DNA from: Cyanidioschyzon merolae
Lineage: Eukaryota
Assembly (NCBI GenBank): GCA_000091205.1
Contig: AP006490.2
Length of the DNA stretch: 64,000 bases
Strand: one strand, 5' to 3'
The notes under the pieces were generated by a model. It had not been told where the DNA came from. It searched no databases and saw nothing but the letters and a program-made list of their open reading frames with translations. Both the position numbers and the translations under genes were made by a program. This document shows, piece by piece, positions 5,868-54,970 of the stretch (its first letter is position 1; the number at the start of each line of letters is the position of its first letter).

Positions 5868-5971
5868 ATATGAGACTTGTCATAAGGAATATAAGTTTGA
5901 GCGTCTGTACCAGGCGATCATCCTTGACACATTACACGCATGTAAGTATCAAATATGACAGATTCTGTAAC

Positions 5972-11559: not shown

Positions 11560-11800
11560 AAGCTGAAAAACACAGGTTCGATTCTGGAAGGATGCGCGAT
11601 TTCAGCATGCTCTGGGCAGGGACAAAAGAAGAGTGTGAATTTGAACGCGTGCATTGAATAATGATGGCGTTTACTCTATGAACACTCGTTCGAGGGCAGC
11701 GTGAATCATCTTGATCTCGGTGACATTGCGAATTCCAACGGGAAAGCGTCGAAAGCGCTACTCCGCAATGACAATCGAGAATCCTGAAACTGCACATGAA
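11560..11800. repeat. dispersed repeat (family 3), second copy at 53200-53470
   Basis: The block ctcgttcgagggcagcgtgaatcatcttgatctcggtgacattgcgaattccaacggg here matches cctcgttcgagggcatcgcgtatcactttggtttcggtgacgtgacgaattccatcgac at 53.3 kb. By eye this is about 70% identity over ~240 bp. Minus-strand translations are similar (GIRNVTEIKMIHAALER here, GIRHVTETKVIRDALER at 53.3 kb). Confidence 0.5.
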
Positions 11801-12200
11801 TCCGTAAGCCCCTCTAACTGTACTTTGAACGTAGGGGATGCACGTCTAAAAACGTTGGGTGATGTAATCGAAACGCAGAAAGCTAGCGAGCATTTGAATG
11901 TTCTATTTCAATCAGAGACGGCTGTTGGATGCAAAAGTTGCGGCTCGAGGTACCGTTTATCCGGCAGGCGATCCGAACGGGTGCGCATCCGCTCCGGCGG
12001 CGGCGCTTGCGATGTGTGCTAGAGACGGGACCCGCGCCGTGCGGCGCGTTCTCCGCCACGGAGCCCGTGGTCTCTGAGAGAGCGTAACGCTAACGGCTGC
12101 CAGCGGCTGAACGAGGAATTGCAGTCGTGCGTTTCGGGTGACAGTGTGTGCGTGTGTCGGGAGATTTCGTGCTAATCCAAAAGTGAAACGATCGAGCTCT

Positions 12201-17960: not shown

Positions 17961-20937
17961 TCATACGCACAACGGACTCCCTCTCCGCAAATAATCACAC
18001 ACGCTCCGACCGGTTCGCCCGAAGCAAGTCTCACTGACAGAAAGGAATCGACTTCCCTGTGCTTCAGACCGATCGCAACGTTCCAGGAAAGCTGTTATTG
18101 CGAATTCGATGGAAGACAGCCGTGGGTGAACTAGGGCTCTGTTTTTGTGACAGTATTCGATTGTTTTCAGGACCACACGAACAAACTGGTGAGAAATGAA
18201 GGCGCCCGTTATGGCTTCTATCGTCGCTTTTGCCTTTCATACGATGAAAAATCGGTGGTTTCCTACCACGGACCGAAAGCACGCTTTGAGAAAGCCGGCT
18301 CTATGGCGCAAAGCGAATACATTTGTTTCTTTCAGTGCTCCCCACCCAAATGAGTACTGTGGTACGACTGGCCAGAAGGGGAAAGGCAATCTTTCTGGCA
18401 CTGTCCAGTGAGGAGTACATGCTACAGGCAATTCGTCTACGATCTATAAGGTACGTTGCATCGTGATTTCGACTACATAACATACACCGCAGCGAGGATG
18501 AAATAATATTCTGTTGAAAGAACATAATCGAAGTCTCTGACTGCAGAGGTCTTGATTTGGTTTGAGATACAGGTAGCAGCCCCTATTCCAGATAAGCAGT
18601 GTACTGCGTGATGCCGTTCTCCTTGCACCTTTGAACGGGATGTTTTCGTCTTGATGTTCTTCGAAACATGTGCAGCAGCCAGCCCCGTGTCAGATCAAAA
18701 AGAGAGCACTTCACTTCTCTCTCTATTCCAGCTTTCCGATATTACCTAACTGCTTTACATGAACACTCTTGACATCCAAAGTGCAGCAACGCGCTGTTAT
18801 GGGTTCATACGTAGTTCTAGGCATCCAGGCCGTCTCCTGGACTATCTGCCTTAGGGCTTTGCTCCTGGAAATCTTCGCGTCACTGAAATTATGATAAATC
18901 CGCAACGCTTTCGAATAAGCGTTTGTAAAAGAATCGATTTCATTATCCAATTCATACGTTCTAGTCTCCAAGCTTCTCCTTTCCTTCCATGCAGCATGCT
19001 CGAATTTCAGAGTTTCCAAGCTTCGATCTCTCCCTTTCAGGGCGACTCGTGAGCGCGGCAATTGTCGCTGCTGGGTTGACAACGGAAAATCAGCCGACGA
19101 CTTTCCTTGAAAAATTCATTCCAAGCTCATGCCGAATGTTGACGTCGCTTCTTACGCCTAATTATTGGTACCATAATTTAGATAAATTGTCGTCTGTTTG
19201 TAGCTATCGAAGAAAGGGGCTTCCACAATAGCATGCTACCTGTTATGCGTTATGCTCCAAGTTGATTCCATGTCTTCTTCTTAGCTGGAAAGCGTCTTAG
19301 AATCGGAATGAACGCTTCCCAGTTATCCCTTCTGGTAGAGCGGGCGCCAATGATTTCAACGAAGGTAGCATAGACGAATCGAAATTCTTCGACTTGTCGC
19401 CCAAACTGGATATTCCTTGCCATAGGTATTCGATCATGGACACCATCGCACTCCACAAATAATCTGTCGAATGAGAGAGCATGCGCTTGCATGTGCAGCA
19501 CACAAAGTGCTCGCCGTTTGGATTGCCTAGAACAAGTCCACGATCGTACGGGTAAGGCACCGGGAGCGGAAGCAGTAATGGGCAACAAGGGTGAGCCTTC
19601 TGTACCCCTCAAGGACATCCAACGAGAAAGAGTGCAAGCGATCACGCGACGCTTTACTGCGCTCCGAGGAGTAGGTGTGGTGCGCATATAGGAGCACCTG
19701 ACAACAATGAAGTGGCACCGCTTCGAAGCGCTCACCAAGGCTCTATACTGGAAACATGGACATGTTTAGCGAAGCGTAGATCGCGTTTTTGGCTGGTGCA
19801 TCAAATGCATAGAGAACAGCCGGCAACTGCGAAAATGGGATTTTGATGCTTTTATCAATATCAGTTGATTGCTGGCAACGGAACCGGAGGGAATAGAGAG
19901 ACCGGCGTGTGTAGAGTTGGAAATAAGAGAGAGAAAAAGGAAGCAGTCGTGGGAAACCCCGCAAACGGTGGTGTTGATGAAGACCGAAGAGACTCAAATG
20001 CTAGTGTGTACACCAGAGTCCGATTCGTGGACTTGTTTCTTTCATTTTGACATGGGTGTAGGACTCTCCTGCCGAATACCGCACCCGTCGCAAACAAAAT
20101 ACGAGAGTCGGTACGCGCATTCAAAGTGCACGTGGTGCTGCGAATCTCCGATGCTCCCCTGTTCTGGAAACTCTATGCCCTGAAGCCTGGACGGCAACCT
20201 GGTTGGAAACCTATCTGTCACGAACAACCTTGCGAACTACGTTTAAGCCCTGCAGCATCACAGAAAAGCTGACTCAAATCCGAGCTGGAAACGTTGCACT
20301 CGGTGCAGTGTTGCTTTTTCAGGGTAAAGCGCGAAACAAGGTCGCGTGTGGGAGTTCACCAAAACGAACAGTATTCCATTCGAAAAACGTGCAAGTCGTT
20401 GCCATGTTGCTTGCAACAACACGTTGTGGCGTCTTTTCGGTTCGTTGCGCATAATCGCCGGTGTTAAGCGAGTTGCCTGGGTGAAGAGCGGAAATGTAAC
20501 GCGATACTAGCAACGATGCGTATCCCGTGAACGAGAGGCAGGTAGGAGCCCGCGGTCTCAAAGAGCAAGGCGATTTCCAAAATCAGGCCAGAACGATTTC
20601 TTCCAGCCAAATCTATCAACAGGCGAGAGCTTCATTGGCCGGGTGGGTATTAAACTCAACACACAACGGCCTCCGTGATCCACGACTCCCGTTCTGCATT
20701 CCTCGGAGGAACACTGGCTCGATCGATCTCGTGAGCCGCAGTGTGCTGTGCGCGAACGCACGCCGCTTCCGGTAACGCTGCCGGTAGGCCGATTTCGGGC
20801 GATGAAGCGGGCGCTGCGAACGCTTGCAACTGCGCCCACTTCTGACAGCTCTCTCGGCGCGTGAAAACTCGGGGCGACTTCCGGTCGCGATCGTACGCTT
20901 CAAGAGAGCCTGGGGCTAGAGGAGAAGCTGTAGACAC

Positions 20938-22071: not shown

Positions 22072-23368
22072 AGTCGAACTTGATACGTGGAATCACAGTC
22101 ATTTCAATGCGTGAAGGCGATATTTTTGGGTACTGGGCGAGGTCTCCATTGGCGACATCCTCGAAACCGTTACCACATCATGGAAATAAGATTCAGTCGG
22201 GCGGATATATCGGGGATCTGGTAGAGCATATGCGCGCTGCACGCGAAAGCAGCGCTTTTGCGTCGTATCCATCGTGCACTGCTGGGGCAAAGCATCAAGT
22301 TCCCGTAGAGTGTTTTCCAGATTCCATCGGATGCCGCGGCGTGTGCAGCGATGAGCGACAGTCTGTGTACGGGGTGTTCAGTTGCAGGCTGAAGATTGAA
22401 GCCGTTTACGCGTCCGTTAGCGTGTAAGGCACGCTCACGGAACGGCAGAGCAGCTCGGACCTCTGCGGTTGCTTTGCCTTGTGCAGCAGGAGTCTGGAGG
22501 ACCCCGACACATACGTTCCGACGTTTAGAGTAAAGACCAACCAGCCTCGCTAGCAAAACCGAGTACGGCAACGAAATCAACTTCGTGTCTGAATGAAATT
22601 TTTCAATGCTGCCGATTACGTAATATCCGATAACCTGTTACGTCGAACTGTACGAGATTCCCCGCATGTATCCTCGTCGCATAGCGCGTCTCGCGATAAC
22701 TGTTATGCCAGCGCTCTGCACGTGTGTACGTGCAATGGCTCGAATTTCCTTCGAAACCAGTCTGAAAGGCTGCATGATGCTGAACTTTTCACACCATCAC
22801 TTTTTGAGTTTCTCACAGTTCAGTATTTGGTGCGAGAGCAACGACCAGCCAGATGGCTCGCGAAACTCAGGACGGCACCGGTGAGGTCATCTGGCCAGCC
22901 TCGGACGCCGAATTCGGCATGCGGCTTTTACAATGATCCGGAGACTTCTCCAACGTGAGATTTTGCTGGTAACGCCATCAAGCTACGCAATCGCTTGTCC
23001 ACTGTCATGTGCCCCGAAATGAGCAGCTTCTCGACAGCCGCAGAGGCTGGCTTCGTACGCGAAGACTGTGTTCAGTATGTTGACAAATCAGTTGCGGAAA
23101 TTTTCATGTCACGTTGCCTGGCTCCACTCAGTTCACGGGAGAAGAAGATGATAGTTATTGCCGGAGGTTGCCAAGAGCCCGGTCTCACGGCGATTTCGTA
23201 CGGGACGGTGCTGGACGCAAACCCATTCAGTGAGTTTATCTGGCGAGGTATCTGTGCAAGCCCTCCGAAGTTAAAAAAATGACGTTTGCTAAACCCGCAT
23301 CGTTGCGCGCTCGAAAGTGCGGCTTTGCGATCATGAAATCTTCGGCAGAATGAAATGGAACTGATTCA

Positions 23369-24130
23369 GTTCGTAAACTCGGGAGTACACACCAAAACTT
23401 GATTTTCTTGTCACCATCATCGAGGTCAGTCTGTAGGGGCATTGTCTGGAACTGCTTCCTTTTCCTGTCTCTTATCTCCGGTTTTCAATACACCTGCCTT
23501 TTATTTTCATCCAACTCTATTGGCATCTGCAGAACGATATTCGTAACAGATTTAGTGACCAGATTTTGCTGCTTGCGGCTATGCGTCGAGCGATTTTTGG
23601 TGGTCTCCATTCAGTACGCAGCGTGGGCATGTTGCTGAAAGGCGGAAGAGTTTCGATAAGAGGAAATCTTTGACCAGGAGAGATAGGACTTCGTTCTCGC
23701 CTACAACTAGACACTGCTGTGGTATGGTCAGCAATGCCGCAACGCTGGAATATCGAGTATATTCACTGTGAGCGATATTCTTTGGCAAGCACTGAACGGT
23801 AGAGGTGCTCCATGATGCGATCTCGCTGCGCATATTTGCCGAGGGAGGCATAGGCGCGAGCGCACAAACACGCCGCTCCCTACGTTTACTCGACTTTTTT
23901 GACCAAGAACGCACCCATCGACAGAACGATCGGAGCAGCGCTTCGGCGATACTAAATGGTAGTGGAGCCTTGAAGACCACGTTCTGGCAGACACTAACCT
24001 GGCGTGCGCTGCGCTGCCCGACCAACTGCCCTCGAGCACCATGCAGCGGAGACGAGAGCTGCGCAACGTCTTCGCGGCACCAGCAGCATACGCAGTTTCG
24101 AATGATACGTTGAATAGCAATAGCCACGGA
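23369..24130 (-). mobile_element. family 2 TnpB-like element, 3'-terminal fragment with conserved terminal module
   Basis: ORF 23579..24127(-) ends ...LFRLSATCPRCVLNGDHQKSLDA, a CxxC Zn finger. The + strand 23372-23560 carries the conserved module (cgtaaactcgggagtacacaccaaaac...cttgtcaccatcatcgagg...ctggaactgcttccttttcctgtctcttatctccggtttt...tctattggcatctgcagaacg). Confidence 0.55.
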
Positions 24131-31427: not shown

Positions 31428-32381
31428 GCTGTACTGTCCGCTGGGGGCACACTGCGGCGCTTCTCTGTTACTGGCGTCGCTTAGAGTATGACATCGAGGG
31501 TAGCTGTTGGCGTCTCCGAGCGTTTTCCGCTTTATCCAGCGTTCACGATCTATCTACAGTGTAGCGCCCCAAATTCTGAGAACTGGAAAGAAGCGAGCGC
31601 AAATGCGTTCCCTTTCTGTGAGCCCTCTTGGCTGCTGCGAGACAACAGCAAAGCCACACTGAAAAGGCAGAGCTCCGACAACATTTTGGGGTCTTCCAAA
31701 ACTTGATAGGATCCGTGCGCGCCCCAGATAAACGATTTTACCACGTATTTCACTTGTGACAGTGGACGTTTTCACGGGAATCTCCTCGAAGCACTGGGCA
31801 GCCGCGTCGGGGTACGCACTTGCATGTTTTGGCGATGCCCGATCTACACAGGGCTCGTTGCATCGAGTCGCATGGCGTCGGTCCTCGCAGATAGCATCGT
31901 AAGATGAGGCATCTTGAGGCAGCTTCAGTCTTGACTGGCCTCCGTGGAGTGGTTGGCATTTGCCGGTGTCACGATCGAATGTACATGCCAAGGTTCAGCG
32001 ATCGCAGATACATCTTTGTGACTGCTGGTTCACTCAGAGCATCTTGCTGCTCTCCGTTCGCTACGTACAATGCATACTGATTGAATCACCGGGGCAAAAT
32101 GAATCAGTTCTGTCATGTTGCTGGCATCGCGCAACCCTAACTCGCGCGCCGTGCGTCGTGTCGCATCCGGTCGCTCTACAGCTGGCAAGGGACTATGCAG
32201 GCAGCAACTGCACTGCTGCTGGCGACGAGGCCTATGCCAGCCCGAGGAGGATTCTCTGCTACAGGTTCTGGTCAGACGATTTTCATCGTATGCTGCATAA
32301 AGAAGAGGGAGCTACATCATTAATTTGATGTTTTTTTAAGAAATACAACCACGCCAGGAGAAAGGTAAAAGTTCCCTGAAC

Positions 32382-33170
32382 ACAAGCGCATACGATAAAG
32401 TTTGGGTTTCTTGCCACTGTCATCAGCACTAGCCTTTGGGGGGGGGGGGGTTCTCTGCACCTGCTTCCTTTTCCGCTCTCATATCTACGGCTCGAAGTAT
32501 CCCGATCTCTCGCTACCTTCTAGCGCCGTTCTCAGCTGTCCTTAGATATTGATTTCGGCGTTAAAGTCCCGACTTTGCCGCTTCCAACTGTTGTTCACGC
32601 AATGCATACACAGGAAAAAGTTGCAATCTACGCTTCGTTCGTTTTTTATCATCTTCATACACAGCCTGGTTGCCCATTTGCAGTGTTGAAAATTGACTGT
32701 GATCTGATGTTCGCTTGTGTCGAGCACAACGTCCGCACCGAGAACCGCCCTGTGGCACGTAAACGCACGCTTCGTCGCTCAGTATCTGCCCTTGATGGAT
32801 ACAGAAGGCTTCTATCGATGCTGCGCTACTTTCCGCACCCGGTTTCGTACCCTGGGATCACGTGCTTCTTTGTGGAGACCCCCTCGACGAGTACGCTGTC
32901 CGCTGCAGAAGCGAAACGCTATTCTACTCGATAGAGGATTTGCGGAATGCAGTGTTGTCCGTTGAGCCACAAGTACCGAGAAGAAGATTCAAGCGGGGGC
33001 GAAAGCCAGGAAATTTCGATTCGTTTATGCTCCCTTTGTGCAAAGAGTTGACGCGCTCCCCACTGGAAGTGGTTGATGGTGTGGCTGAAGTCTCAGACCA
33101 AGACCCTTGCCGTGCAAAAAAGAGGGTCAGAAAACCTCCGGGCGCATATCCCGTGGCGGGGATCATGATG
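32382..33170 (-). mobile_element. family 2 TnpB-like element, longest fragment (C-terminal ~200 aa equivalent + terminal module)
   Basis: ORF 32542..32727(-) ends ...HCKWATRLCMKMIKNERSVDCNFFLCMHCVNNSWKRQSRDFNAEINI (Zn finger + RuvC-III). Upstream, 32924..33166(-) contains LLLGTCGSTDNTAF, which is RuvC-I-like. The + strand 32384-32530 carries the conserved module (gcgcatacgataaagtttgg...cttgccactgtcatcagcac...G13 run...ctgcacctgcttccttttccgctctcatatctacggctcg). Confidence 0.55.
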
Positions 33171-34177
33171 GTGCGGATTGCCGTTTTCTCGATTGGTACA
33201 GAGATGGTGGTAGATTTTTCGGAGCGATCCGATTATTTGGCGCGGAAAGTTCAGTAAACATTGGGTACGAATGTGCGAAGCAGTTGTCAACGGCCGAGGT
33301 CGCGTTATGTACGTCCTCATTCCAGCGGCGCGGACTGCTGTGCCTACGAGTCGCCTTGACACAGGCAGATCAATATTTTACAGAACGCTCGCTTCGGGCA
33401 TGCCAAATGTGAGGAAAGGAAGAAGATTGGATGCTCATGTGCTTACTAATTGGATGATGATTCGATTACTTTAAAAGTCCCTGTTCGAGAGCGTCGCAAT
33501 GCACCTTGATTCCGGTGACCAAACGAATTTCAGCAACAGAACATCCAAGGGGCCATTTCCAAAAAGCAACATACAGACAGGAAACCTAAAATTACGTACG
33601 AATCCCTAATCACCTATTAATACACTTCGCGTGTCCACTGTTCAAGAAGAATGTTCGGAATATAATGAAAATTCAACAACAGAGCGAGCAGTTCAGTCTT
33701 CCATTGTAGCCTGACAAATATGCACTGCCTACCAATCGATCACCAGCGGATACATTTGGGAGAAAATAGTCCGTTCGTGCGAACTGAAGTTTGCCGAGCC
33801 CGCCGTGAGTGCCAACCACGACACCTGCAGCGCCACCGCTGGCGGAGCATGAAGAAAAAACAGCTTTACCCGTTCCCTGTCGGACTTTGATTCGACAAGT
33901 GCAGCGTTTGGTTGCACATTTACGCGCTTGGAGGTCATTGCGCTCGCTCGTACCCTTCATTTTTATAAACGAACCTGGTACCCGTCCACAACTCGCCGCT
34001 GAAGCCGTGCGACGCGTATCGCAGCCGATGGCGGCATCATGTCCAGTCCGCGCCGGGCGTCTGGCGCGCAGGCGTCGCTCCAGCCGCTCGAGGCGCTTGC
34101 CAACAGATTGAGGCCGAGCGCTGAGCTCCGAACTTCAGCCGCAACAGCGATACGACCTTTGGGCTCGTTTACGAAAC

Positions 34178-35422: not shown

Positions 35423-37646
35423 ACTTTGCTTGATCAGAGGAGCTGAGGCCACATTGAACAATAACCAAGTCTTACGCTTATGAGCACACTCCATGGTATG
35501 TGTACTGGATTCGGGACAGAAGCGCTAGAGGGGCGTGTGCTCCACCTGTTGGCGGGCCACGGAAAGAGCGTGCCAGTAACGTTGCCGCCGGTACTGCTGA
35601 CGGAGATTTTCGTACTCATACATGTGGACGCACAGCTTAGCCTCCTGTTCAGTAGGGCGATCCCTCAGTATCCATTTATCAGGTAGTTGAATTGGTATCA
35701 CCATCGTGGAGCCGGATGCACTCGGCCTATAGTATCTGACAGGGGAACAGTTTCATGCGATGCACGAACTTGCGTAAAAAATGCCCTCTCCGGTCTTTGC
35801 GAAAGCTCTTGTCTATTACGAGAACGGCGCTCCGGCTCATTGCATCATACCGGCGCTCAACTTTGCGTCTGGGCCTCGATCAGAGCGGTTTCGCTGCATA
35901 TCAGGAGTGCTTACGTACAAAGCAAATTTCATATTGAAATGGAGCGGATCTATTCAGCTAACTTGGGTATACGCGCTGAAGTTTTGGTTTCTTCCCACTG
36001 TTACCAACACCGGCGTTTGCGAGCTTTATCTGCAACTGCTTTATTTTCTCCTCTCTAGGCTTCGACATAAGATACACTGGTCATTCATTTGCCTCCAGAT
36101 CCGATTCAGCAGACGGATGATGTTGATGGCATGCTAAAATCCTGATTTCACCGCTTTCGACAGTAGTCCACATATTCAACGTGCCGGCTGTATACACGAC
36201 TGCCTTGCATACCATTTTCATCTCTATACACGGCATCGGTGCGCCCTTCGCATCTTTAGCACTTGCCCGTTGTCAGCTGTTCCTGTGTATCCATCAAACC
36301 TCCTCCGATGGTCGCTGCATGGCGCGTGAACGTCTACTTTATCGCTCGGCAGAAGTCCTTGACGGTTCCAGGAGGTGTTCGTGCATGCTTTCCTCCGTTT
36401 CTGCGCCAGATGCCATGCCTACGATCAGGGGTTTCTTCTGTAAGATCCCTTGGGCGGGTACTCTGTGTTCTGCTTGCGCAAGCGCACGCTGTTCCATTCG
36501 ATGACGCAACATTCGCCTTCTTGCACGCTCTTCATTTTCTCAAAACTCTGACTACAAAGCGTTGGCTCAAGCATGATGGGCATCGAGTTACATAAGACAC
36601 TCGCGGGTATCCTATCCATACATTCCACCCGAAAGTGATGCTGCGACGAAGGCTTCTGCAGAAGCCGTCTGTTTCGCTCGCTTCGCGAACGATTCTTTTA
36701 TTCCTTTCCTTCCTCTGATACTAGATTTAGGGGCACTCGAGCACAAGTTCTGGCGTTGGGCACAAGTCGGAGGGTTCGAAACCCGTGACCCCAAAGCGTT
36801 GCAGTTTATCGCAGGTCGGACCGCTCTTCAGGTATCATGGTGGCGCATGTGTGGCGCGTCGCTCTCCCGCGTTCCGACCTATGCAGATCGCGTTCGGTGG
36901 CAACTTTACGATGCTATGTGTCTGTATTAATCGTTATTCCTCTCGGAATTTCTCCTCCTAAGAAAGGAAGCGTATGAGCTCTAAGAGAGCCGTGAATCGT
37001 TTTGTGACGTTTGCGTTCGATGTCGGCGGGTGTCCGCACGAGATCGGTTTTGATTGAGGACAATATATCTCCTCCACGTTGCGCGAACCTCCCTTTCCCT
37101 CCTCCTGCTTTGCCATAGCATTTTTCTTGAACTACAGTCTCTTTTTTCCTACCGCGGTTCATGAGCGCTTTAACAAAGGAGGGCATCGGTTCGATCCTTC
37201 TTTACCCGTCAAGTGCATGCGCCAAACGATAAAGCAAGCCGCCATGCGCCACAGAGCGGCGCATGGAACAGAATATGTGGTGGACAGATCAGAGCACATG
37301 ACCATAGTCAAGTGTTAGGGATGCGAAGGGCGCACAAAGACTGGTTACCCTGAGAATGAAAATGGCTAGCCAGGCATAGCCCCCAGCTTTCAGATGTACA
37401 TTGCATGTGTCGAGAACATCAGGCAGCGGCGCAAACCGGACCTTTATCACTACTATCGATATCCTTCGACAAATGAGAACGGCGCTCGAGCGACACGAGA
37501 GACCGATGTATTTCAAGCCGCAGAGAATGAAAAGGAAAAGACAGCAGTCGCGGATAACCATCCCAAAGCCTTCTGCATGTGACACTGGGGAAGACCCGAA
37601 GTTTAGCGTGTGACCGCACGAGTTAGCTGAGTGGACCCGTTCCATT

Positions 37647-38384
37647 TTAGCCTGACATGGGTTTAAAGCGACGCGCAACTGGCTTGACGACGAACTGGTC
37701 TACAAGCGGCGCCAAGAGCAATGCACCCGCAATGCGAAACGGACGGGAGAAATTATTCAACAACCACATGCCCGCCACAACTTTCAAAAAGTTTTGCCAG
37801 GTTAGTGGTGCATTATCTGTCGCCCTTTTGAAAGTGATAAGTGCGATAACGAAGCTCGCTGAATAAGTGATTGCGTCGAAAAAGCCGTACGCGAGGATTG
37901 CAGCGAGCCCGTATGAACGCAGCCGTTGAAGCGCTGTTTCCTTCTCCGGGAACAAGTTAGTGAATGCACCCTGCAACCGCTTCCAAAACCCCTGTCGTTT
38001 CCGCGCTGTGTTCATGGCCTGCTCCGGAGCGCTGTCTCTCGGTCTGACAGCGTTATTCGACTGCTCCAAGCGCCGTTGCTCCAGCTGCTCAAGGTACGAC
38101 AAAGGGCGCGTACTAGTCGAGCTTGAGGAGCCATCCTCCATAGGCGGACGCCGCGTACTTTCAAGCCATTTCATATATTGGTCGGTTTGGCCGGTGCATG
38201 AAAGTCGCAACGCAAACGGAGGCGTCCTGTGGAAGCCTCGTGGAAGCTTCCGGCGAGCGCACTCTGAATCCACTGTTCGGTGTCCGTGCACGATGAAGTC
38301 GTTACGCGCTTGTTTGACTGAGGAAAACCTTTTTGCGTGCAGCGGCGCTGTGAACTGTGTTGCCGTGTTCAGAATCAAGAACAT
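37647..38384 (-). CDS. predicted multi-pass membrane protein of unknown function
   Basis: The 245-aa ORF has a charged, S-rich N-terminal half. The C-terminal half is hydrophobic (LRSYGLAAILAYGFFDAITYSASFVIALITF...LKVVAGMWLLNNFSRPFRIAGALLLAPLVDQF). A weak resemblance to DUF1279/FAM210-type proteins is not established. Confidence 0.3.
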   Translation of the reverse strand: MFLILNTATQFTAPLHAKRFSSVKQARNDFIVHGHRTVDSECARRKLPRGFHRTPPFALRLSCTGQTDQYMKWLESTRRPPMEDGSSSSTSTRPLSYLEQLEQRRLEQSNNAVRPRDSAPEQAMNTARKRQGFWKRLQGAFTNLFPEKETALQRLRSYGLAAILAYGFFDAITYSASFVIALITFKRATDNAPLTWQNFLKVVAGMWLLNNFSRPFRIAGALLLAPLVDQFVVKPVARRFKPMSG

Positions 38385-39836: not shown

Positions 39837-40318
39837 CAGCCATACTGTTAAAAAGACAACTCAGGAACACGAAACGCTCTATCGAACTGGAACGGGTGGC
39901 GGCTTCTGAAAGTGGTCCATTGCCGCGGAAAACAGCTGGACTATGTCACGGCTGCTGGCGATTTGAGAAACAGCCGCGGCGAGCCCTGGCGCGTCCAGGA
40001 TCCGCGTTGTCCTTTTCGTCTATAATTGAGAGTCAGATTAAAATAGGACATTTAGCGACACGTTTTTTCCAGCATATTCTTTTTCTTTCGAACCATGTTG
40101 TTAGATACACAGCCTCGATACTCGAATTGCAGCAATAAGGGCCTACGGATTCATAGACCTTTTTGACGCTCTCGGTCTTCATTTTCGAAAAGTGCGAGCG
40201 ACTCTTTGCCACTGGAAATCGTTCCGCGACGGGAATCAAGATGATGCGCGGTGCCTTCGAACAAGGTTTCGTAAAATAACCAATTCCATGATCAGATTCA
40301 TTTGTGAAATCATCGACG

Positions 40319-40351
40319 CCTCTCCTCTCCTCTCCTCTCCTCTCCTCTCCT
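40319..40351. repeat. (CTCCT)n microsatellite, about 6 units
   Basis: ctcctctcctctcctctcctctcctctcc seen directly in the sequence. Confidence 0.9.
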
Positions 40352-41596
40352 TACCTATCGCCTGCAACAAGCAAGCCTTCTTCAAGTGCACGATCTTTTT
40401 TCTCATGAATACCCTTGGTCACGGTAATTCGCGACCCTGGAGGGACAAGCGAAGAACTCGACGTCGTCTCATGAGGACTTTTTACCATCTCACGCCGGAA
40501 GTTTTCTGTATATGTACCGTCAAATAATCGATTCCATTCGAAGCACAAATCCTCCCCTTTTTGTGGCCAAAGAAGACACTCTATTCGACAGCAACAGAAT
40601 GATAGATTTCACGGGAAATGCTCCCAGAGGTCCCTGGATCTTCTGTTTCCATGGAACGGCGCCTCGGATTCGGAACTGAGCTATCGCAGCGATCGCATCC
40701 AGTGGGGACCGCATAAGCGCTTTGCACGATGTGAGCATAGACGGATCGAAATTTCTTGACTTTTACCCAGAATGAAATTTTTTCAGCTACTTGTTCCTTC
40801 GTGATAATCATCACTTTCCACAAAAATCCTCTATTGAATCGAACAGCTTGCGCTTTCATGTGCGGCAGGTAATGTTCTGGCGGAGAATATAGCCCCGGAA
40901 AGCCCATTAACGCACGATACAGCATCGGGCGAGGAAACGGAGGAGCGTATCCAGAGAACCTTTCTGTACTCTTCTATTGCATGCACGGAGTGGTATAGCA
41001 AGCGTTCACGTGCCAACGGTCGATCCCGGAGAAAAACGAGGAGTCGTGGACAAATGATAAAACCTGAAGACAGTCAAGTGCCAACTGTGCAAAGGCGCGC
41101 ACCGGGGTTGCATACAAATAAGTTGACAATGGCAAGCGATGTGTAGATCGCAGCTACCACCTGTGAATGAAATGCGTTGACAACTGCGGGAATCAGCGAA
41201 ATCGGGAAATTAACGCTGCTACCAACATCCTTCGAATGCTGACTACTCGGCGCACGATAAAACCTATGAAACGAGCAATATATCCGAGAAGAATGGCTTA
41301 TGGAACTTGGAAGCAGAGCGTGGTATGATGGATGGTTCACTGTGCGCTGATATCAAGCGCGCTGTTGTGGAACGATGGCCTGCGTCAACGTCTTGACAAA
41401 TTGATACGAATAACAGCTCGCGTTGTACGAACAGGAAGCATTCACTTGTCAGAGTGAGCGTGCATGAGTTGCTCATAGCCGCACCGGCGTCAAACGGGGA
41501 AGAATCGCTCTTCGCTGAACTCGAACACCTGGCTGACAGACCCTACAGCAAAAGAACGTACAACTGAGACGCGCCCCGCGTGAAACTGTTTCTGCT

Positions 41597-46600: not shown

Positions 46601-46913
46601 CGAACGTTCGAGGGACTACTTTAGTATTGAGTATGAGCATTTTACTGGAACGCGTATCGCCTCTGATGAAAAGAAACAGTTGTCAGGAGAGAATGGACTG
46701 CATTCTAGACTGGAGGAAGACGCTGGAGCGATACGGTGCAGATATCCAGCAAAGCCACAGCGCCGTACCTATCCACGTAAAACGATTCTCCCAAGCAACT
46801 GGTAAACTATAATAGGGTTCTTTATTGTGCATAGCTGATTATATGGTTCTTTTAAGGAAGACTTTTCAAAAAAGGTTTGCAAACATCACGAATGTAGACT
46901 GTTGAATTATGAA

Positions 46914-50159: not shown

Positions 50160-52206
50160 TATAGCAGAAGCGTTCTAAATACGTTCGTTTTCAAAGATAA
50201 GAAAGGAAAAATTGGGGGGTGCAAGTCGAGGATCCTGGAGGGCCGGTATCGTCGGCTGCCGTAAAAAAAACGAAAAACAGAGCAGCATAAAGGGCAGCAA
50301 GACAAGACGAAGAACCAGAAGCAAGAGGCTATCAGAAACCGTGTCGCGTCCTCCTCCATGGGTGTTTGGGAGGCTTCTTCAAGGACGATGCATTTGGTGA
50401 AGGAGATGGATCGCGACGTCGCGGATATCAACACAGTCGAGGCTCCGGAAGAATTTTTTAACAAGACCTTCATCTGTCTCCTGATGCTTGACACGGGGGA
50501 AACGTCGAGGAGAAATGAGGGAGTGCACGCCCTCCACGAAAATCACGCCGAATTCCACTTCAACAAGACTAGATACAGGGGTGACGCGGATATTTATATT
50601 TACGGGGCCATCAAGTGCCTCATGAACCTGAAGAACCACTTGGCCATGAACGTCAAACGCTTCATGATACGTTCCATCTTTGCACCCTAGCCGGGCCTGT
50701 CTCGGAAAGAGATATGAGCATCATAAACGGCATCACGAACGATAGTAAGAATGAACAGGAGATCGAATTCGTCGACAAGAAGACATCACACAGGAGAATG
50801 AATGAAGCTTCTGTAAACCGTACGACTATTAAAGAGCACCGCGCGGCTCTGGGGCTGGTCAACCCAATAGAGAACGTATCAGATATGGAAAAAGATAAAA
50901 AAAGCTGTTCCCTTATACTGCGCTATGCCGTTTTTCTGAACCGAGAGCATGAACGCAAGGCAGTGATGGAGCCGGATGTGGAGCATAATGAAGAGTCGGA
51001 GAAATGGAAGGCTGCGCTTCCAGAGAAGCGCTTCAACGTCGTTCCGATATGCAACATCAAGTCGCATTTTGTGGCAATCGACTCCAGCGTCCTTCATGAC
51101 ATTATGAAGAGGATCAGTACGGAGTTCGATATAAGGAGGGAGGAATTTATTGGTGAAAACCCGTAGACTTACTGGTAAATTATATTCGACTTGAAGCGCG
51201 TCAACACGAGCAAGAGAAAGATTTTCAGGGCGACGATCGAAAGCGATGGAATCTCGGTATATGTGCACCCTGCAGGCGCCTAAAGGTAGATCGTCCAGTT
51301 CCGTCTTCGTTTTCGCACTTGACGGAGCAAGCAGACAAGAACGGGGTCCTGATGCGTACAAGGCACAGGAGAACGACTTCGTAGTCGGCGCGGATCTCGG
51401 GAACACGAATGTCATGACCGTAGCAGTAGCCAAGTGTGGGGAAGCTGGCATCGAAGGCAACTTACGACAAAAGGACATGCGTCTTTTAAAGTTCTCAATA
51501 GCGAGATACTACCGAGAATCGGGAATGGTGAATCCGAAGGGAAAAAGATAGAAATGGATCTCAGGAGTGAAGGGGCATCTGGGAGCGATCAGCCTGGTGA
51601 CTAGTCGAAGTGCGAACTTTCCAGCTTTGCGGGAATTCATGAAAGTTCGTGCTGCTCATGACGAGGAGCTGTGGAAAGAGTATACAAAGCCCCGGTGGGC
51701 TCGTCAGCGTATGAAATTGTACCATGGGAAGCGACATGCATTCTCCAATCTCTTCAACCAGTTGAGCGCTATCAAAGAGACCAAGAGTCAAAGGCTCGTA
51801 GTAGCATCCGGAGCAGGACGCTGAGCGTCAGGAAAAGGGAGCATACCGATTCCGTCGACTCCAGCGTACAAGGAGTGCGCACACCGTTTTGTCACAATAC
51901 TGGTAGGTGAGTTTCGAATGTCATGCATAGACCACGAGCTGGGGTGTAAAGTTCAGAAGGTCGAGATGGAAAAGTGCCAGCGGAGCGCTGAGGATATAGA
52001 AAAGCACGGAGAGCTGACAGAACAGGAAATGGAACGCAGGGCGCAAGTTCGAGGACGACACGCATTACTGATTACAGCCAACGAGCAGAGAAGCATGGAG
52101 TTCGTGAATCGAGACTTTGACGCCGCTACAGATATATGGAGATATGCGGTGCCGGAGAGGAGACTCCCGGCGCTGATGGGAGCGAATTTTCTCGAAATAC
52201 CACATA
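50160..52206 (+). mobile_element. Fanzor/TnpB-like element, family 1, copy 3 (frameshifted; 3' end truncated by adjacent family-2 element)
   Basis: The + strand ORFs 50358..50690, 50615..51166, 51246..51551, 51567..51824 and 51918..52220 are collinear with copies 1 and 2. The upstream block gccgtaaaaaaaacgaaaaac is shared with copy 2. Homology to copy 1 stops at about 52205, where the family-2 terminal module begins. Confidence 0.7.
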
Positions 52207-52220
52207 GCGAATGCATGTAG
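50358..52220 (+). pseudogene. TnpB/Fanzor-like RuvC nuclease remnant
   Basis: RuvC-I is NDFVVGADLGNTNVMTVAVAKCG. The zinc-finger region is SCIDHELGCKVQKVEMEKC. RuvC-III is MEFVNRDFDAATDIWRYAVPERR. A frameshift lies near 50650, and the reading frame is truncated after ...ANFLEIPHSECM. Confidence 0.7.
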
Positions 52221-52830
52221 CTAACTTAGGCGTGCTTTCTAAGGATTAGTTCTCTCCCTGCTGTCATCAACACCAGTCTTTGCGGGATGTTCCTGCGCAT
52301 GCTTCATGTTTCTCTCTCTTAGCTCCGGCTTGGGATACGCTGGTGTCTCTGTTCCCAGCAGTTCTGCTGCCAAGAGATATTGATCGTTAATCACATTTTT
52401 CATAGCCAAATTTCGCAATGTCCGGCTATTACTGACGAATTTCATGCACAGGTGCAAGTCGCGATCGACGCTTCGCTTGCCATTTCCATCGTATTGTTTA
52501 CACGACCTGTGCCGCCTCTGCACCTGTGGCAATTTGCTCCAGTCCGGCGTACCCAGATGTCGATCGAACCTTCTTCGATGGCTGCCCTGTGGCACGTGAA
52601 CACTTGCTTTAAAGATCGGTGCACACCCTTGAGAGGTACAGAAGGCTCCGCTGGATGACCTCCTACTTTTCTGTTCCAGGTGCCGTTGCTTAGGGTCATG
52701 GGTTTCGTCTGGGAGACACCCCTGGCAATTACCCTGTCCGCTGCATGCGTCATCGCGCGCTGCTCCATTCGACAGAGGATTCGTTGAACGCAATACTTGT
52801 CGTGGCGAAACTAGTGCCAAAAGGAGAATT
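52206..52830 (-). mobile_element. family 2 TnpB-like element, 3'-terminal fragment with conserved terminal module, abutting family-1 copy 3
   Basis: ORF 52239..52820(-) contains ...RSCKQYDGNGKRSVDRDLHLCMKFVSNSRTLRNLAMKNVIND, a Zn finger plus a degenerate NAA motif. The + strand 52208-52370 carries the conserved module (gctaacttaggcgtgctttctaaggattag...ctgctgtcatcaacaccagtc...cgcatgcttcatgtttctctctcttagctccggcttggg). Confidence 0.55.
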
Positions 52831-53199
52831 CATGTTGGAGAAAACGATGAGCGTTTTCGATCCGTTGACGCCCCGACGTGCAAAGCTATGACGCACGCGT
52901 CACTGGAAGTGATCGCTGCGATGACTGATGACTATGCCCAAGACCCTTTTCCATGCAAACAGAAGAGAGGAGAGCCTCTGGGAGCAGATCCTGCGAGATG
53001 TATCATGTTTTTGTCGAATGTCGTTTCTTCTGTGACCATAAAGAAAGAAAGATTCGTATTTTGAACGAAATGGATTATTTGGCGTGAAAGGCTAAGTGAA
53101 CTTTTGGTATAAACTTGCGAACAAGTCTTCAGGAGACCACAACGTCGAATGTTTTTCGCTCGTCGATCCACCTGCTCGAATTGTGACGCCACGAGTTGC

Positions 53200-53470
53200 T
53201 TGGAAACACCAAGATCGATAACTTGAAGCATGCGTGAATTGAACATGCCGCACGTAATGAAAGGAGGAGAACGCAACCTTGCACTTCTGAACTGGATGAT
53301 TTTTTTCGATTCTTTTACGAGCCCTCGTTCGAGGGCATCGCGTATCACTTTGGTTTCGGTGACGTGACGAATTCCATCGACAAAAAGATTCGAGAGCGTT
53401 TTGCCCGATAAACAAGCGAGAATCCTAAGACTTCCTCTGAACCCATACGCCCTCATTACTGTGCTGTGAG
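53200..53470. repeat. dispersed repeat (family 3), copy of 11560-11800
   Basis: See the 11560-11800 entry. The shared coding remnant reads LFVDGIRHVTETKVIRDALERGLVKESKKIIQFRSARL in minus-strand ORF 52932..53486. Confidence 0.5.
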
Positions 53471-54970
53471 TGTCGAGGCAGCGCATCTACAAAACCTGAG
53501 AAAAAAGAAATCTTAGGGTAGGAACAGAGCGCGCAGCTCACTTTTCTATTTCTTTACTGAAACGAGTCTAAAAGTCCATGAAGGACCGTGTGCCCGAAAG
53601 AGAAAACCGTCCCGAGTCTGCGTTGCTCGCTGATGTCGTGATTGAAACTCGATGCTAGACGTATTCTTTACTTACGAGATTTTCCAAATGAGCCCATTCC
53701 AGAAACCTGTTGGTGGCTGCTCGATTTCTAGAGCCAGCTTGTGCACGCTGGCGGCCACCAGGTACAGGAAGAGCTAAACGCAGACTTGAAAAATAGGCCG
53801 CTCGGCAAGCAGGTGCCAACTGGCCAACGTAGCGCCCTAAGCTGCTTTGTAGTCGCACCTAACCATTCCATGCAGGATCGCAGAGGATGCAATTCATCGA
53901 TAGCTCTCCACCGTTGCGTGAGCATGCTTCCAATTCAACAACACGCTGGTATCACATCGGATCCATATACTGCATGCAGTTTTGCGAAGCATGCATCGAA
54001 CGAATGCATCGCTATCGATCCTATATACATTTTTGCATTTTCATACTCGTTTGTACTCCGTTTCGTGTTGTCCATGCGCTCATTTCCAGATTCTCGTCAA
54101 TTATCCTGGGTATTCGCAGATGGTGCAAGTCAGCGAGCATCCTGCAGCTGCCCCAAGTGAGATGCATTCTGTGAGCTCCTGGGTCCGAGTCTTCAAAATT
54201 ACATTGCTGACGGTTTCACTGCCAGAAAAATTATCTTCCGAATATTGACCGATCCTCAATTGCCACGGGAACATATCCACGCTCGCCGACAACGGGTCTA
54301 CTTGCGTAAGAGCAGGATCAGGCCGTGTATACACATCCGAGGATACCGTGCGAGCGCTCCAGTGAGCCGTACACCAAGTGTCTCTGTTCCGTGATATACG
54401 GTTAGCTCTAAACCGCAGTTCTGCCTCTATCGATGCGGTAATATGAACTTGAAACAGTCCTCCAGTAGACTTTTGCGGCAGAAACAAAGTAATCTATGCA
54501 GAAGCGTTTTTTTGCCCCGGAAACGCTTCTGAATAGTCGTTAGGCGTGATCGTCATCCGCTGAGGATGCAAACGCCTATCCGTAGACATCGTCTGACTTG
54601 AGTGCAAAACTCAAGCACGGCAGCACCATAACTTTGTGAACCTCAACAGGTCCCGCGCTTTGAGACACGCAGCCTGCACGCGTGTCGCCGACTCCACTCG
54701 AGCGCTGCTCGGCATATCGGGTGTTTTCAGCAGTCTCACAGGTCTTCTAAACACACCCCACACGTTGAAGAGAGGGCTCGCTGCCCTTTCTTTTTATAAG
54801 CCAGTGATCAGCGCTTGCCCCCGCAAACTACCTCGAGCAATTATCTGCAACGCACAGAGCGTACAGCTTAATGGACGGCCATTGAGATGTGCGCTGCGGC
54901 ATCGCTGTAGCCGCCTGGCAGCAAACACGCCGCTCGATGACGGTGGACTCTCGCGACTTGCAAACACGCG

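What the first reader, a model, noticed from the sequence alone, without database searches (positions are those of the whole stretch)
32382..33170. Family 2: a second TnpB-like family present only as co-oriented 3'-terminal fragments
Five loci carry the C-terminal end of a distinct TnpB-like ORF: 5972-6400, 10174-10720, 23369-24130, 32382-33170 and 52206-52830. The consensus is (R/H)SCK...LCM(K/E)C...RDFNAAINI. All five are on the minus strand. All are truncated toward the 5' side at different points but keep the same 3' end. No copy retains the N-terminal two-thirds of the protein. Five of five in one orientation, with preferential retention of the 3' end, is unusual for a cut-and-paste DNA element. 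It may mean the 3' module is selected for independently of the nuclease, or that it propagates as a miniature derivative.
Basis: partly seen in the sequence, partly recalled or inferred. Interest (0 to 1): 0.7.

Follow-up and report, generated by a model that had tools for sequence, protein, structure and literature searches.

The report
Decayed mariner-type Fanzor transposon relics

Summary
The window is nuclear DNA of Cyanidioschyzon merolae 10D, so "TnpB-like" here means Fanzor. The description is incomplete, though. The window holds nine copies, six on the minus strand and three on the plus strand. Four are complete units of about 1.38 kb and one is a 1.78-kb variant. Adding 45 further copies from Cyanidioschyzon-like metagenome contigs gave a clean consensus. 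It has 26-bp terminal inverted repeats flanked by TA. Its 5' half is the N-terminal part of an IS630/Tc1-mariner DDE transposase (Pfam DDE_3). Its 3' part is the last ~200 residues of a Fanzor1 (RuvC-II, zinc finger, RDFNAAINI). Intact parents, with a DD34E transposase, a 770-800-aa Fanzor1 and matching end sequences, exist in metagenomes. Family 2 is therefore an internally deleted, non-autonomous mariner-Fanzor1 element that spread in an old burst and then decayed neutrally: about 57% pairwise identity, uniform along the element, with no RNA covariation. The Fanzor tail survives because it lies next to the right end, which transposition requires. The orientation bias and independent selection of the 3' module are not supported.

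The parts
32346..33722 (-). Copy E, the locus of the finding. Complete short-form Family 2 element (~1.38 kb), decayed.
   Evidence: nhmmer against the 49-copy HMM: model 10-1439, E=2.9e-306. The left TIR outer end at 33722 was found by pattern search. The right end at ~32346 is placed by model coordinates only, because no TIR match was found there.
33697..33722 (-). Copy E left terminal inverted repeat (CATATTTGTCAGGCTACAATGGAAGA).
   Evidence: 8 mismatches to the 26-nt TIR consensus CACCCRTGTCAGAWTAAAATGGAACA. The consensus TIRs agree at 26 of the first 28 positions, terminal TA included.
32950..33645 (-). Copy E transposase-derived half: HTH plus DDE_3 up to the second catalytic D. Boundaries are approximate and read from model coordinates.
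   Evidence: Family consensus frame +1 hits Pfam DDE_3 (E=4.4e-10, 40 bits against a cut-off of 28.6) plus HTH_33 and HTH_Tnp_Tc3_2. It aligns to intact transposases tp60 and tp45 at E=9e-54 and 5e-57.
32400..32950 (-). Copy E Fanzor1-derived tail: RuvC-II E, CxxC...CxxC zinc finger and RDFNAEINI. Boundaries are approximate.
   Evidence: Profile of 7 intact relatives matches hmm 570-709 (iE 2e-14). ORF 32542-32727 carries the motifs. Consensus hits PF07282 at 1.4e-7.
5935..7310 (-). Copy A, complete short form.
   Evidence: nhmmer model 10-1440, E~0. Right TIR at 5935-5960 is preceded by TA. The left end is placed by model coordinates only.
10149..11924 (-). Copy B, long form (1,776 bp). It has both TIRs, about the first 95 aa of the transposase, and Fanzor1 from about residue 320 to the end. 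It is an independent deletion derivative.
   Evidence: TIRs with 5 and 6 mismatches. fz45 aa 321-458, 460-578 and 613-627 map to 11449-10480. Profile hmm 337-707 includes the TDG and degenerate RuvC-I region.
18682..20058 (+). Copy C, complete short form on the PLUS strand (1,377 bp).
   Evidence: nhmmer E~0. Both TIRs were found, with TA outside the right one. tp45 aa 2-186 maps to 18759-19361 and fz60 aa 627-782 to 19581-19913.
23337..23595 (-). Copy D, right-end fragment only (~260 bp).
   Evidence: nhmmer model 1189-1440, E=8.5e-42. Right TIR at 23337-23362.
35921..37187 (-). Copy F, long-form type (B-like middle), truncated at the 5' side.
   Evidence: nhmmer with B as query: B positions 553-1849, E=2.7e-70. 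P0003 aa 245-398 maps to 36713-36247. Right TIR at 35921.
37168..37663 (+). Copy G, the 3' ~500 bp on the PLUS strand. Its broken 5' end meets the broken 5' end of F.
   Evidence: nhmmer model 941-1439, E=1.7e-90. Best-preserved right TIR, 4 mismatches. Only 59% identical to F, so it is not a recent duplication.
40025..41255 (+). Copy H, short form on the PLUS strand. It lacks the last ~180 bp and is cut by a TE-N2_CMe/CMe-1A 5' fragment at 41244-41398.
   Evidence: nhmmer model 21-1252, E=7.6e-242. Left TIR at 40025. CMe-1A positions 4-160 map to 41398-41244.
52197..53590 (-). Copy I, complete short form. Its right end abuts the 3' end of a CMe-1A copy (49318-52203).
   Evidence: nhmmer model 4-1421, E~0. 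Profile hmm 519-622 (iE 3e-22) and 633-706. No TIR match was found, so both ends are approximate.

Best explanation
Family 2 is a family of dead, non-autonomous DNA transposons of the Tc1/mariner-IS630 superfamily. They derive by internal deletion from a composite element that carried a DD34E transposase gene followed by a Fanzor1 (eukaryotic TnpB-like, RNA-guided nuclease) gene between ~26-bp terminal inverted repeats.

Shown. The short form is about 1,385 bp counting a TA at each end. It consists of the left TIR, transposase residues ~1-245 (HTH plus the first two catalytic Asp, without the Glu), one shared deletion junction, the last ~200-240 residues of Fanzor1 in a different reading frame, ~30 nt, and the right TIR. 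A longer variant (copies B and F) has different breakpoints. Intact elements with both genes and matching end sequences exist in metagenomes. Copies are about equally distant from one another (~57% identity), and the decay is even along their length.

Inferred. A full-length element of about 3.5 kb lost about 2 kb internally. The product kept both ends, which are the only cis requirement for cut-and-paste transposition. Transposase supplied in trans mobilised it to TA (possibly CTAG) sites in one old burst in the Cyanidioschyzon lineage. It has drifted neutrally since. The Fanzor tail is a passenger remnant, kept only because it lies next to the right TIR. It lacks RuvC-I and cannot be a nuclease. 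Later deletions and nested CMe-1A insertions produced the truncated copies D, F, G and H.
For: Organism: window proteins match C. merolae 10D entries BAM79736, BAM79737, BAM79746 and BAM79750 exactly, on a 739,753-bp chromosome.

Copies: nine in the window.

Distinct from CMe-1A: nhmmer and tblastn with the Bao and Jurka consensus hit only Family 1.

Related copies: the metagenome scan found 199 relatives and kept 80 loci. 54 of 80 nhmmer hits span essentially the whole 1,381-position model. The same contigs carry CMe-1A copies, so they are Cyanidioschyzon-like.

32-copy consensus: DDE_3 at 40 bits (cut-off 28.6) plus HTH domains in frame +1, and PF07282 at 32 bits (cut-off 26.3) in frame +3.

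Collinearity with intact elements: tp60 aa 10-271 maps to nt 112-915 (E=9e-54) and fz60 aa 561-782 to nt 798-1286 (E=2e-31). tp45 and fz45 give the same picture.

Intact parents: L060 and L047 have a transposase with full DDE_3 (98 bits) and the residues ISIDETGFD, LLMDNIAFHK and YSPWFNPIE, followed by an 802-aa or 796-aa Fanzor1. L045 is similar.

Ends: consensus TIRs agree at 26 of the first 28 positions and were recovered in window copies with 4-9 mismatches. TA is the modal flanking dinucleotide, exact in about 7 of 20 ends against about 1.25 expected. The right end ...TGTTCCATTTT...GGTGTA follows the stop codon of every intact relative.

Neutral decay: identity is flat at 55-62% along the element. 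All-against-all identity has mean 0.571, with 5th-95th percentiles 0.54-0.59. There is no covariation.

Fanzor1 type: P0003 against CMe-1p gives E=1e-13 and includes IETDGV, DPG, YGxGR and NRDFNAAINI.
Against: No empty (pre-insertion) site was found, so the TA duplication rests on a consensus, not on a demonstrated case. TA is palindromic and could instead be the outermost TIR bases.

No autonomous copy was seen in C. merolae itself. The intact relatives are only 38-55% identical in protein to the consensus, so they are cousins and not the actual parent.

Three of nine window copies (D, F, G) keep the right end and lack the left. Random decay explains that less neatly than a polar process would, although the number is small.

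The metagenome loci were selected through C-terminal Fanzor peptides. Copies lacking the 3' end could therefore not be sampled, which inflates the apparent integrity of that end.

TIRs were not recognisable at five of the fourteen searched ends in the window.
Confidence: 0.85

Rival explanations
1. The 3' module (Fanzor tail plus right end) encodes a guide-RNA (omegaRNA) scaffold or another functional RNA or DNA element. On this view it is retained by selection independently of the nuclease, and the copies act as dispersed guide-RNA genes for a Fanzor supplied in trans.
For: In TnpB and Fanzor systems the omegaRNA overlaps the 3' end of the ORF and runs to the right end of the element (my own background knowledge, not tested here). 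Eight of the nine window copies keep the right end. The consensus 3' 228 nt folds somewhat better than shuffles (z=-2.5, 2 of 200 shuffles as good). An invariant TACGCC that can pair with the terminal GGTGTA is kept in all relatives, intact or decayed.
Against: Identity among copies is no higher in the 3' region than elsewhere. RNAalifold finds no shared structure in the window copies (-0.08 kcal/mol). For the consensus-derived structure, pairing and covariation fall below the shuffled mean, with 466 of 500 and 434 of 500 shuffles at least as high. The 5' transposase half is kept just as well in 54 of 80 related hits. Copy H has lost the module. No intact Family-2-type Fanzor was found for C. 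merolae.
Confidence: 0.05
2. The copies arise by a polar, replicative process that starts at the 3' end. Candidates are target-primed reverse transcription, or one-ended or rolling-circle transposition as in Helitron-borne Fanzors. Such a process would yield 5'-truncated copies with a common 3' end.
For: D, G and F keep the right terminus and are cut at different 5' points. Bao and Jurka describe one-ended transposition for Helitron-associated Fanzor1 elements (PMC3627910).
Against: Most copies, in the window and elsewhere, have both ends at the same positions with inverted repeats. The element encodes a DDE_3 transposase remnant, not RT or Rep-helicase. There is no poly(A) or Helitron-type 3' hairpin-CTRR end; the element ends in a TIR. 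In the metagenome set, 3'-truncated copies (L028, L064/65, L075/76, L021b) are about as frequent as 5'-truncated ones (L040, L043, L087).
Confidence: 0.05
3. The unit encodes, or once encoded, a functional chimeric protein: transposase DNA-binding N-terminus fused to the Fanzor C-terminal zinc-finger/RuvC part. On this view it was a domesticated fusion gene that multiplied.
For: The 32-copy consensus has long open stretches in both parts. On virus-like contigs an intact 610-aa ORF (P0004), identical on 17 contigs, ends in a Fanzor tail with a similar breakpoint.
Against: In the consensus the two parts lie in different frames, +1 and +3, with a stop after the transposase part, so there is no single ORF. 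Every window copy has multiple stops and frameshifts, and the longest stop-free piece is 193 aa and partly out of frame. Star-like ~57% identity with uniform decay indicates no purifying selection.
Confidence: 0.03

Closest known systems
Mariner-type elements carrying Fanzor1 (PUl-1, PUl-4, PGv-1; Bao and Jurka 2013, PMC3627910)
   Same: The architecture of the inferred parent and of the intact metagenomic relatives matches: a Tc1/mariner-type transposase gene at the 5' side, a Fanzor1 gene at the 3' side, TIRs and TA flanks. Derivatives that carry Fanzor1 but no transposase yet keep mariner TIRs are already described (PUl-4).
   Different: The host is a red alga. The copies are deletion derivatives that keep only ~30% (short form) or ~58% (long form) of the Fanzor together with a truncated transposase. 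Copy number is high, whereas PUl and PGv elements have 1-8 copies. I did not compare the sequences directly with PUl or PGv elements.
CMe-1A / TE-N2_CMe, the described C. merolae Fanzor1 repeat. I infer it to be the '253-copy WSV486-like repeat' of Nozaki 2007, from its size, copy number and Fanzor-like ORF.
   Same: Same genome and same Fanzor1 clade features (IETDGV, DPG, YGxGR, NRDFNAAINI). Both are old, abundant, mostly degenerate and interspersed in intergenic DNA, and they are often adjacent to each other.
   Different: There is no DNA similarity. CMe-1A is ~3.2 kb with a 734-aa Fanzor, no TIRs and unknown class, and its copies are ~80% identical to their consensus. Family 2 is 1.4-1.8 kb, has TIRs and a DDE_3 remnant, and is much older (~57% pairwise identity).
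MITE-like internal-deletion derivatives of Tc1/mariner-IS630 elements (such as Stowaway-type MITEs and deleted mariner copies)
   Same: They retain both TIRs and subterminal sequence, lose internal coding sequence, depend on transposase supplied in trans, use a TA target, and amplify in a burst from one deletion event.
   Different: At ~1.4 kb this family is larger than classic MITEs, and it still shows recognisable remnants of two different genes.
Prokaryotic IS200/IS605-IS607 TnpB elements and their omegaRNA-bearing remnants
   Same: The nuclease tail is homologous (RuvC-II, zinc finger, RuvC-III 'RD'), and it sits at the right end of a mobile element.
   Different: There is no Y1 or serine-recombinase TnpA and there are no subterminal hairpin ends. 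Mobility here is DDE cut-and-paste. An omegaRNA is not demonstrated.

Membership tests
Fanzor/TnpB (motif of Bao and Jurka 2013: D-X(125,275)-[TS][TS]-X-X-C4 zinc finger-X(5,50)-RD) | RuvC-II Glu followed by [TS][TS]-x-x-CxxC...CxxC zinc finger (Pfam PF07282) | tested here: met
   The consensus reads 'VVDIWEHLTTAKCHRC...RLCMKC'. PF07282 scores 32 bits against a cut-off of 26.3, E=1.4e-7. The motifs are degenerate but visible in copies A, E and I.
Fanzor/TnpB | RuvC-III 'RD' motif near the C-terminus | tested here: met
   The consensus has 'NRDFNAAINI', identical to CMe-1. Copy E has 'SRDFNAEINI'.
Fanzor/TnpB | RuvC-I Asp 125-275 residues upstream, which a complete nuclease needs | tested here: not met
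   Short-form copies match only profile positions ~515-710 of 717, so the RuvC-I region is deleted. In copy B the region is present but reads 'GQGKCRANL' where intact relatives have 'GLDPGRVNL'. These are gene fragments, not functional members.
Fanzor1 (as opposed to Fanzor2/IS607-type) | Clusters with Fanzor1 proteins, and is associated with a eukaryotic transposon superfamily, not with an IS607 serine recombinase | tested here: met
   The closest intact relative P0003 aligns to the CMe-1 Fanzor1 over 430 aa (E=1e-13), with the IETDGV, DPG and YGxGR motifs. The neighbouring gene is a DDE_3 transposase, not a serine recombinase. No phylogeny was built.
Fanzor/TnpB | Guide RNA (omegaRNA) encoded at the 3' end | tested here: inconclusive
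   Consensus fold z=-2.5. There is no conserved structure or covariation in the window copies. Among intact relatives the only candidate is an invariant 6-bp TACGCC/GGTGTA pairing. There are no Rfam hits.
Tc1/mariner-IS630 superfamily | DDE_3-type transposase with N-terminal HTH domains | tested here: met
   The consensus hits PF13358 at 40 bits (cut-off 28.6) plus HTH_33, HTH_Tnp_Tc3_2 and HTH_32. Intact relatives score 98 and 90 bits.
Tc1/mariner-IS630 superfamily | Complete catalytic triad D, D, 34 residues, E | tested here: not met
   The intact relative L060 has ISIDETGFD, LLMDNIAFHK and YSPWFNPIE. The Family 2 consensus leaves the transposase frame right after IMDNIAFHK, so the Glu is deleted and the element is non-autonomous.
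Tc1/mariner-IS630 superfamily | Terminal inverted repeats | tested here: met
   Consensus ends TACACCCGTGTCAGATTAAAATGGAACA and TACACCCATGTCAGAATAAAATGGAACA agree at 26 of 28 positions. TIR matches with 4-9 mismatches were found at nine copy ends in the window.
Tc1/mariner-IS630 superfamily | TA target-site duplication | tested here: inconclusive
   TA is the commonest dinucleotide just outside the TIR at both ends, exact in about 7 of 20 scored ends, and a preceding C is frequent. No empty site was available to prove duplication.
CMe-1A (described C. merolae Fanzor1 repeat) | DNA similarity to the 3,169-bp CMe-1A consensus | tested here: not met
   nhmmer with CMe-1A and tblastn with CMe-1p hit only 3-2193, 15704-17884, 49318-52203, 45989-46619 and some 5' fragments. 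None of the nine Family 2 copies was hit.
IS200/IS605 or IS607 TnpB elements | Y1 or serine-recombinase TnpA and subterminal hairpin ends | tested here: not met
   The upstream gene or remnant is a DDE_3 transposase, and the ends are inverted repeats.

The most novel reading that the evidence does not exclude
The retained Fanzor tail plus right end may be the guide-RNA (omegaRNA) module of this Fanzor1 lineage. The many miniature copies would once have formed a dispersed set of guide-RNA genes, each with a different flank-derived guide, used by a Fanzor1 supplied in trans, possibly from a giant virus or an autonomous element. The invariant TACGCC...GGTGTA pairing at the right end would be the last scaffold stem next to the guide. 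A weaker form of this reading is that the family records repeated exchange of mariner-Fanzor1 elements between giant viruses and cyanidiophyte algae.
Probability: 0.05. Interest if true: 0.7.

Novelty: new member of a known kind. Interest (0 to 1): 0.3.

Why it matters
This mainly settles a curiosity. The apparent selection for the 3' end of a TnpB-like gene in one orientation came from seeing only the recognisable protein motif of a worn-out miniature transposon.

Three modest points remain.

[quoted passage not shown] Together the two make up about 30% of this 64-kb window. I found no description of this family in the papers I could read.

Second, the family supplies a clear transposon class for a cyanidiophyte Fanzor1 (mariner/IS630, DD34E, TIRs). 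The class of CMe-1A is still listed as unknown.

Third, intact relatives from metagenomes, some on virus-like contigs, give full-length transposase plus Fanzor1 elements that could be tested as thermo-acidophile-associated RNA-guided nucleases.

Tried and rejected
1. I first assumed a bacterial or cyanobacterial origin. Pfam hits to XPF, cyclin, homeobox and C2 domains and exact matches to C. merolae proteins ruled that out.

2. I considered that the conserved DNA after RDFNAAINI might be a non-coding omegaRNA tail. It is mostly the C-terminal ~47 codons of the Fanzor, as in P0003. Only about 30 nt plus the TIR is non-coding.

3. RNA structure. RNAalifold on the window copies found nothing. 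The consensus MFE structure showed no covariation. Intact relatives share only an invariant 6-bp stem. Rfam at gathering thresholds found nothing.

4. The first consensus, built from window copies only, gave just a weak HTH_Tnp_Tc3_2 hint (E=3e-4). I could not interpret the 5' half until the metagenome copies improved the consensus.

5. I tried to read the 5' half as a diverged Fanzor N-terminus, with 'AFDTS' as a possible RuvC-I. I dropped this once the frame matched DDE_3.

6. A scan of IMG/VR viral contigs with P0003 found no relatives.

7. An nhmmer hit linking 23409-23813 to 46429-46823 was not reproduced by blastn, and I dropped it.

8. I looked for orthologous or empty sites. L001 and L002 are 99.4-99.6% identical to the window and contain copies E and F, so they give no information on insertion. 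The other loci share only transposable elements with the window.

9. I tested whether G and F are a recent inverted duplication. They are only 59% identical.
Full report
ORGANISM AND SETTING. The window has few long ORFs, no tRNA genes and no Rfam hits. Its long ORFs encode eukaryotic proteins: XPF/ERCC4, cyclin, an RRM protein, a KN homeobox, a C2-domain protein and PPi-phosphofructokinase. Four of them match proteins of Cyanidioschyzon merolae 10D exactly (BAM79736, BAM79737, BAM79746, BAM79750), on a 739,753-bp chromosome. "TnpB-like" in this genome therefore means Fanzor, the eukaryotic TnpB homologue.

CHECKING THE OBSERVATION. Self-comparison and nhmmer change the picture, however. The family has nine copies in the window:
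- A, 5935-7310 (-)
- B, 10149-11924 (-)
- C, 18682-20058 (+)
- D, 23337-23595 (-)
- E, 32346-33722 (-), the locus of the finding
- F, 35921-37187 (-)
- G, 37168-37663 (+)
- H, 40025-41255 (+)
- I, 52197-53590 (-)

Six minus to three plus does not differ from chance (p=0.51). Even five of five would give only p=0.06. A, C, E and I are collinear over about 1.38 kb and share a 5' boundary. H shares that boundary but lacks its last ~180 bp. B is a 1.78-kb variant. Only D, G and F are truncated at the 5' side. Mean pairwise identity among the long copies is flat at 55-62% along the whole element. The 3' end is no better conserved than the rest. It is simply the only part whose protein motifs are easy to recognise by eye.

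RELATION TO THE KNOWN C. MEROLAE FANZOR REPEAT. Bao and Jurka (2013, PMC3627910) describe one Fanzor1 family in this alga, CMe-1A. Its consensus is 3,169 bp, it has about 150 copies, it encodes a 734-aa protein, and it has no TIRs. Its 5' 635 bp also exists as a separate repeat, TE-N2_CMe. I searched the window with their consensus and protein. None of the nine Family 2 copies is hit.

RELATIVES ELSEWHERE. A consensus protein from the window copies found six metagenomic proteins, including the intact P0003. P0003 aligns with the CMe-1 Fanzor1 over 430 residues (E=1e-13), with the IETDGV, DPG, YGxGR and NRDFNAAINI motifs. It has 380 relatives at E<=1e-3 among 1.84 billion representatives, mostly 600-850 aa long. 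The nearest are all metagenomic, and the first named one is from the green alga Tetraselmis. A profile of seven intact relatives (717 positions) was matched against three-frame translations of the window copies:
- Short-form copies match only positions ~515-710.
- B matches 337-707, including a degenerate RuvC-I region.
- F matches 459-706, G matches 566-707 and D matches 665-706.

THE DECISIVE STEP. A scan of JGI metagenome contigs found 199 relatives, of which 80 loci were kept. Most lie on long contigs of about 54% G+C that also carry CMe-1A copies. They therefore come from Cyanidioschyzon-like genomes. With the window-derived DNA model, 54 of 80 hits span essentially the whole 1,381-position model. 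Family 2 is thus a discrete unit of about 1.4 kb and not a set of random fragments. The 49 non-identical full-length copies, including four from the window, are all about equally distant from one another. Mean identity is 0.571, with 5th-95th percentiles of 0.54-0.59. That star-like pattern fits one old burst followed by decay.

A consensus of 32 non-redundant copies resolves the 5' half. One reading frame encodes the N-terminal ~245 residues of an IS630/Tc1-mariner transposase. Pfam DDE_3 scores 40 bits against a cut-off of 28.6, and HTH_33, HTH_Tnp_Tc3_2 and HTH_32 also hit. A different frame encodes the Fanzor tail, with PF07282 at 32 bits against a cut-off of 26.3. The consensus ends are inverted repeats, TACACCC(G/A)TGTCAGA(T/A)TAAAATGGAACA, which agree at 26 of 28 positions. 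The unit measures 1,385 bp counting the terminal TA at each end. TIR matches with 4-9 mismatches were found at nine copy ends in the window. TA is the commonest dinucleotide just outside the repeat.

INTACT PARENTS. Loci L060, L047 and L045 carry a 318-342-aa transposase with a full DDE_3 domain (98 and 90 bits). It is followed by a 772-802-aa stop-free Fanzor1 ORF. The L060 transposase has the DD34E residues ISIDETGFD, LLMDNIAFHK and YSPWFNPIE. An end sequence like the Family 2 left repeat precedes the L060 and L047 transposase genes. Every intact Fanzor gene is followed within about 30-90 nt by the same right end...TGTTCCATTTT...GGTGTA.

The Family 2 consensus is collinear with these elements:
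- Transposase residues ~10-245 map to nt 112-~830 (E=9e-54 and 5e-57).
- Fanzor residues ~530/560 to the end map to nt 798-1364 (E=2e-31 and 5e-38).

About 2 kb is missing between the two blocks. The missing stretch covers the transposase C-terminus, including the catalytic Glu, and about 70% of the Fanzor. Copy B has different breakpoints, with transposase residues ~1-95 joined to Fanzor residues from ~320. It is therefore an independent deletion derivative.

HOW IT WORKS. The anatomy, the collinearity with intact elements, the TIRs and the uniform decay are shown. The rest is inferred. A composite mariner/IS630-Fanzor1 element lost its interior. The product kept both ends and was mobilised in trans by the DD34E transposase into TA sites, possibly CTAG. 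It multiplied in one old burst and has drifted neutrally since.

The Fanzor tail is a passenger remnant. It lacks RuvC-I, lies out of frame with the transposase part, and is broken by stops in every window copy. Retaining the terminal parts is what a cut-and-paste element's deletion derivatives are expected to do. It is not an anomaly for that class. The truncated copies fit later damage. H is cut by a TE-N2/CMe-1A fragment. F and G meet at their broken ends but are only 59% identical to each other.

THE SELECTED 3' MODULE OR GUIDE-RNA IDEA. The window copies share no RNA structure. The consensus 3' 228 nt folds moderately better than shuffles (z=-2.5). On the copies, however, pairing and covariation fall below the shuffled mean. 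Across intact relatives the only shared pairing is an invariant TACGCC with the terminal GGTGTA. Because it never varies, it says nothing for or against a structure. I rate this reading at about 5%.

LITERATURE CONTEXT AND NOVELTY. Nozaki et al. (2007, PMC1955436) report transposons as 0.7% of the genome, with eight class II elements, plus a 253-copy, 3.2-kb WSV486-like repeat making up about 5%. From its size, copy number and Fanzor-like ORF I infer that repeat to be CMe-1A. In this window Family 2 covers 10.6 kb and CMe-1A-related sequence covers 8.7 kb, together about 30%. Mariner elements carrying Fanzor1, and Fanzor-only derivatives with mariner TIRs, are already described (Bao and Jurka 2013). 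This is therefore a new member of a known kind. I could not check Repbase or Dfam.

LIMITS.
- No whole-genome search was possible.
- No empty site was found.
- The metagenome sample was selected through C-terminal peptides, so copies lacking the 3' end could not be sampled.
- The intact relatives are cousins (38-55% protein identity), not the actual parent.
- The virus-like nature of some contigs carrying relatives rests only on gene content: Rpb2, RNA ligase, Peptidase_S74 and many orphan ORFs.

Noticed in passing
window 44620-46619 (+): There is a decayed IS630/Tc1-type transposase remnant at 44620-45500 (matches tp60 aa 69-342). About 500 bp downstream, at 45989-46619, lies a diverged CMe-1-like Fanzor1 C-terminal piece (41% identity to CMe-1p aa 493-592). 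This may be a third transposase+Fanzor1 deletion derivative. It hints that the CMe-1A lineage, whose class is listed as unknown, once rode a mariner-type element.
   Followed up: partly
One fragment truncates Family 2 copy H. One full copy abuts the right end of copy I. CMe-1A copies also lie within 4 kb of many Family 2 copies in the metagenome loci.
   Followed up: partly
right ends of all relatives, e.g. window 32346-32420 and L060:3560-3637, L045:4727-4769, L042:4718-4779: An invariant TACGCC lies 25-75 nt inside the right terminus in every relative, intact or decayed. It can pair with the invariant terminal GGTGTA. Its function is unknown; it could be a transposase-binding subterminal site or the last stem of a guide-RNA scaffold.
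   Followed up: partly
L004-L007 and L050-L053 (contigs of 20-57 kb with RNA polymerase Rpb2 and many orphan ORFs): P0004 is an intact 610-aa ORF, identical on 17 contigs that look like giant-virus genomes. It ends in a ~245-aa Fanzor tail whose breakpoint (fz45 aa 558-760) resembles that of the algal short form, and it reads through the right TIR. So a Fanzor-tail fragment sits inside a conserved virus-like ORF.
   Followed up: partly
whole window: Fanzor-related repeats cover about 30% of these 64 kb, and almost every intergenic region holds a Family 2 or CMe-1A copy. That is far above the published figures of 0.7% transposons plus a 5% interspersed repeat for this genome. Either this region is unusually repeat-rich or old repeats are under-annotated.
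   Followed up: no
window 62028-62259: A short tandem repeat with a unit of about 94 bp and copies 95-100% identical lies downstream of the 2,226-aa C2-domain ORF.
   Followed up: no
L001 and L002 against window 32175-37422: Two environmental assemblies (ENA ERZ27249350, Logan SRR29605940) are 99.4-99.6% identical to the window across CSP41 and Family 2 copies E and F. Near-identical C. merolae strains therefore occur in sequenced environmental samples, and these copies are fixed in them.
   Followed up: partly
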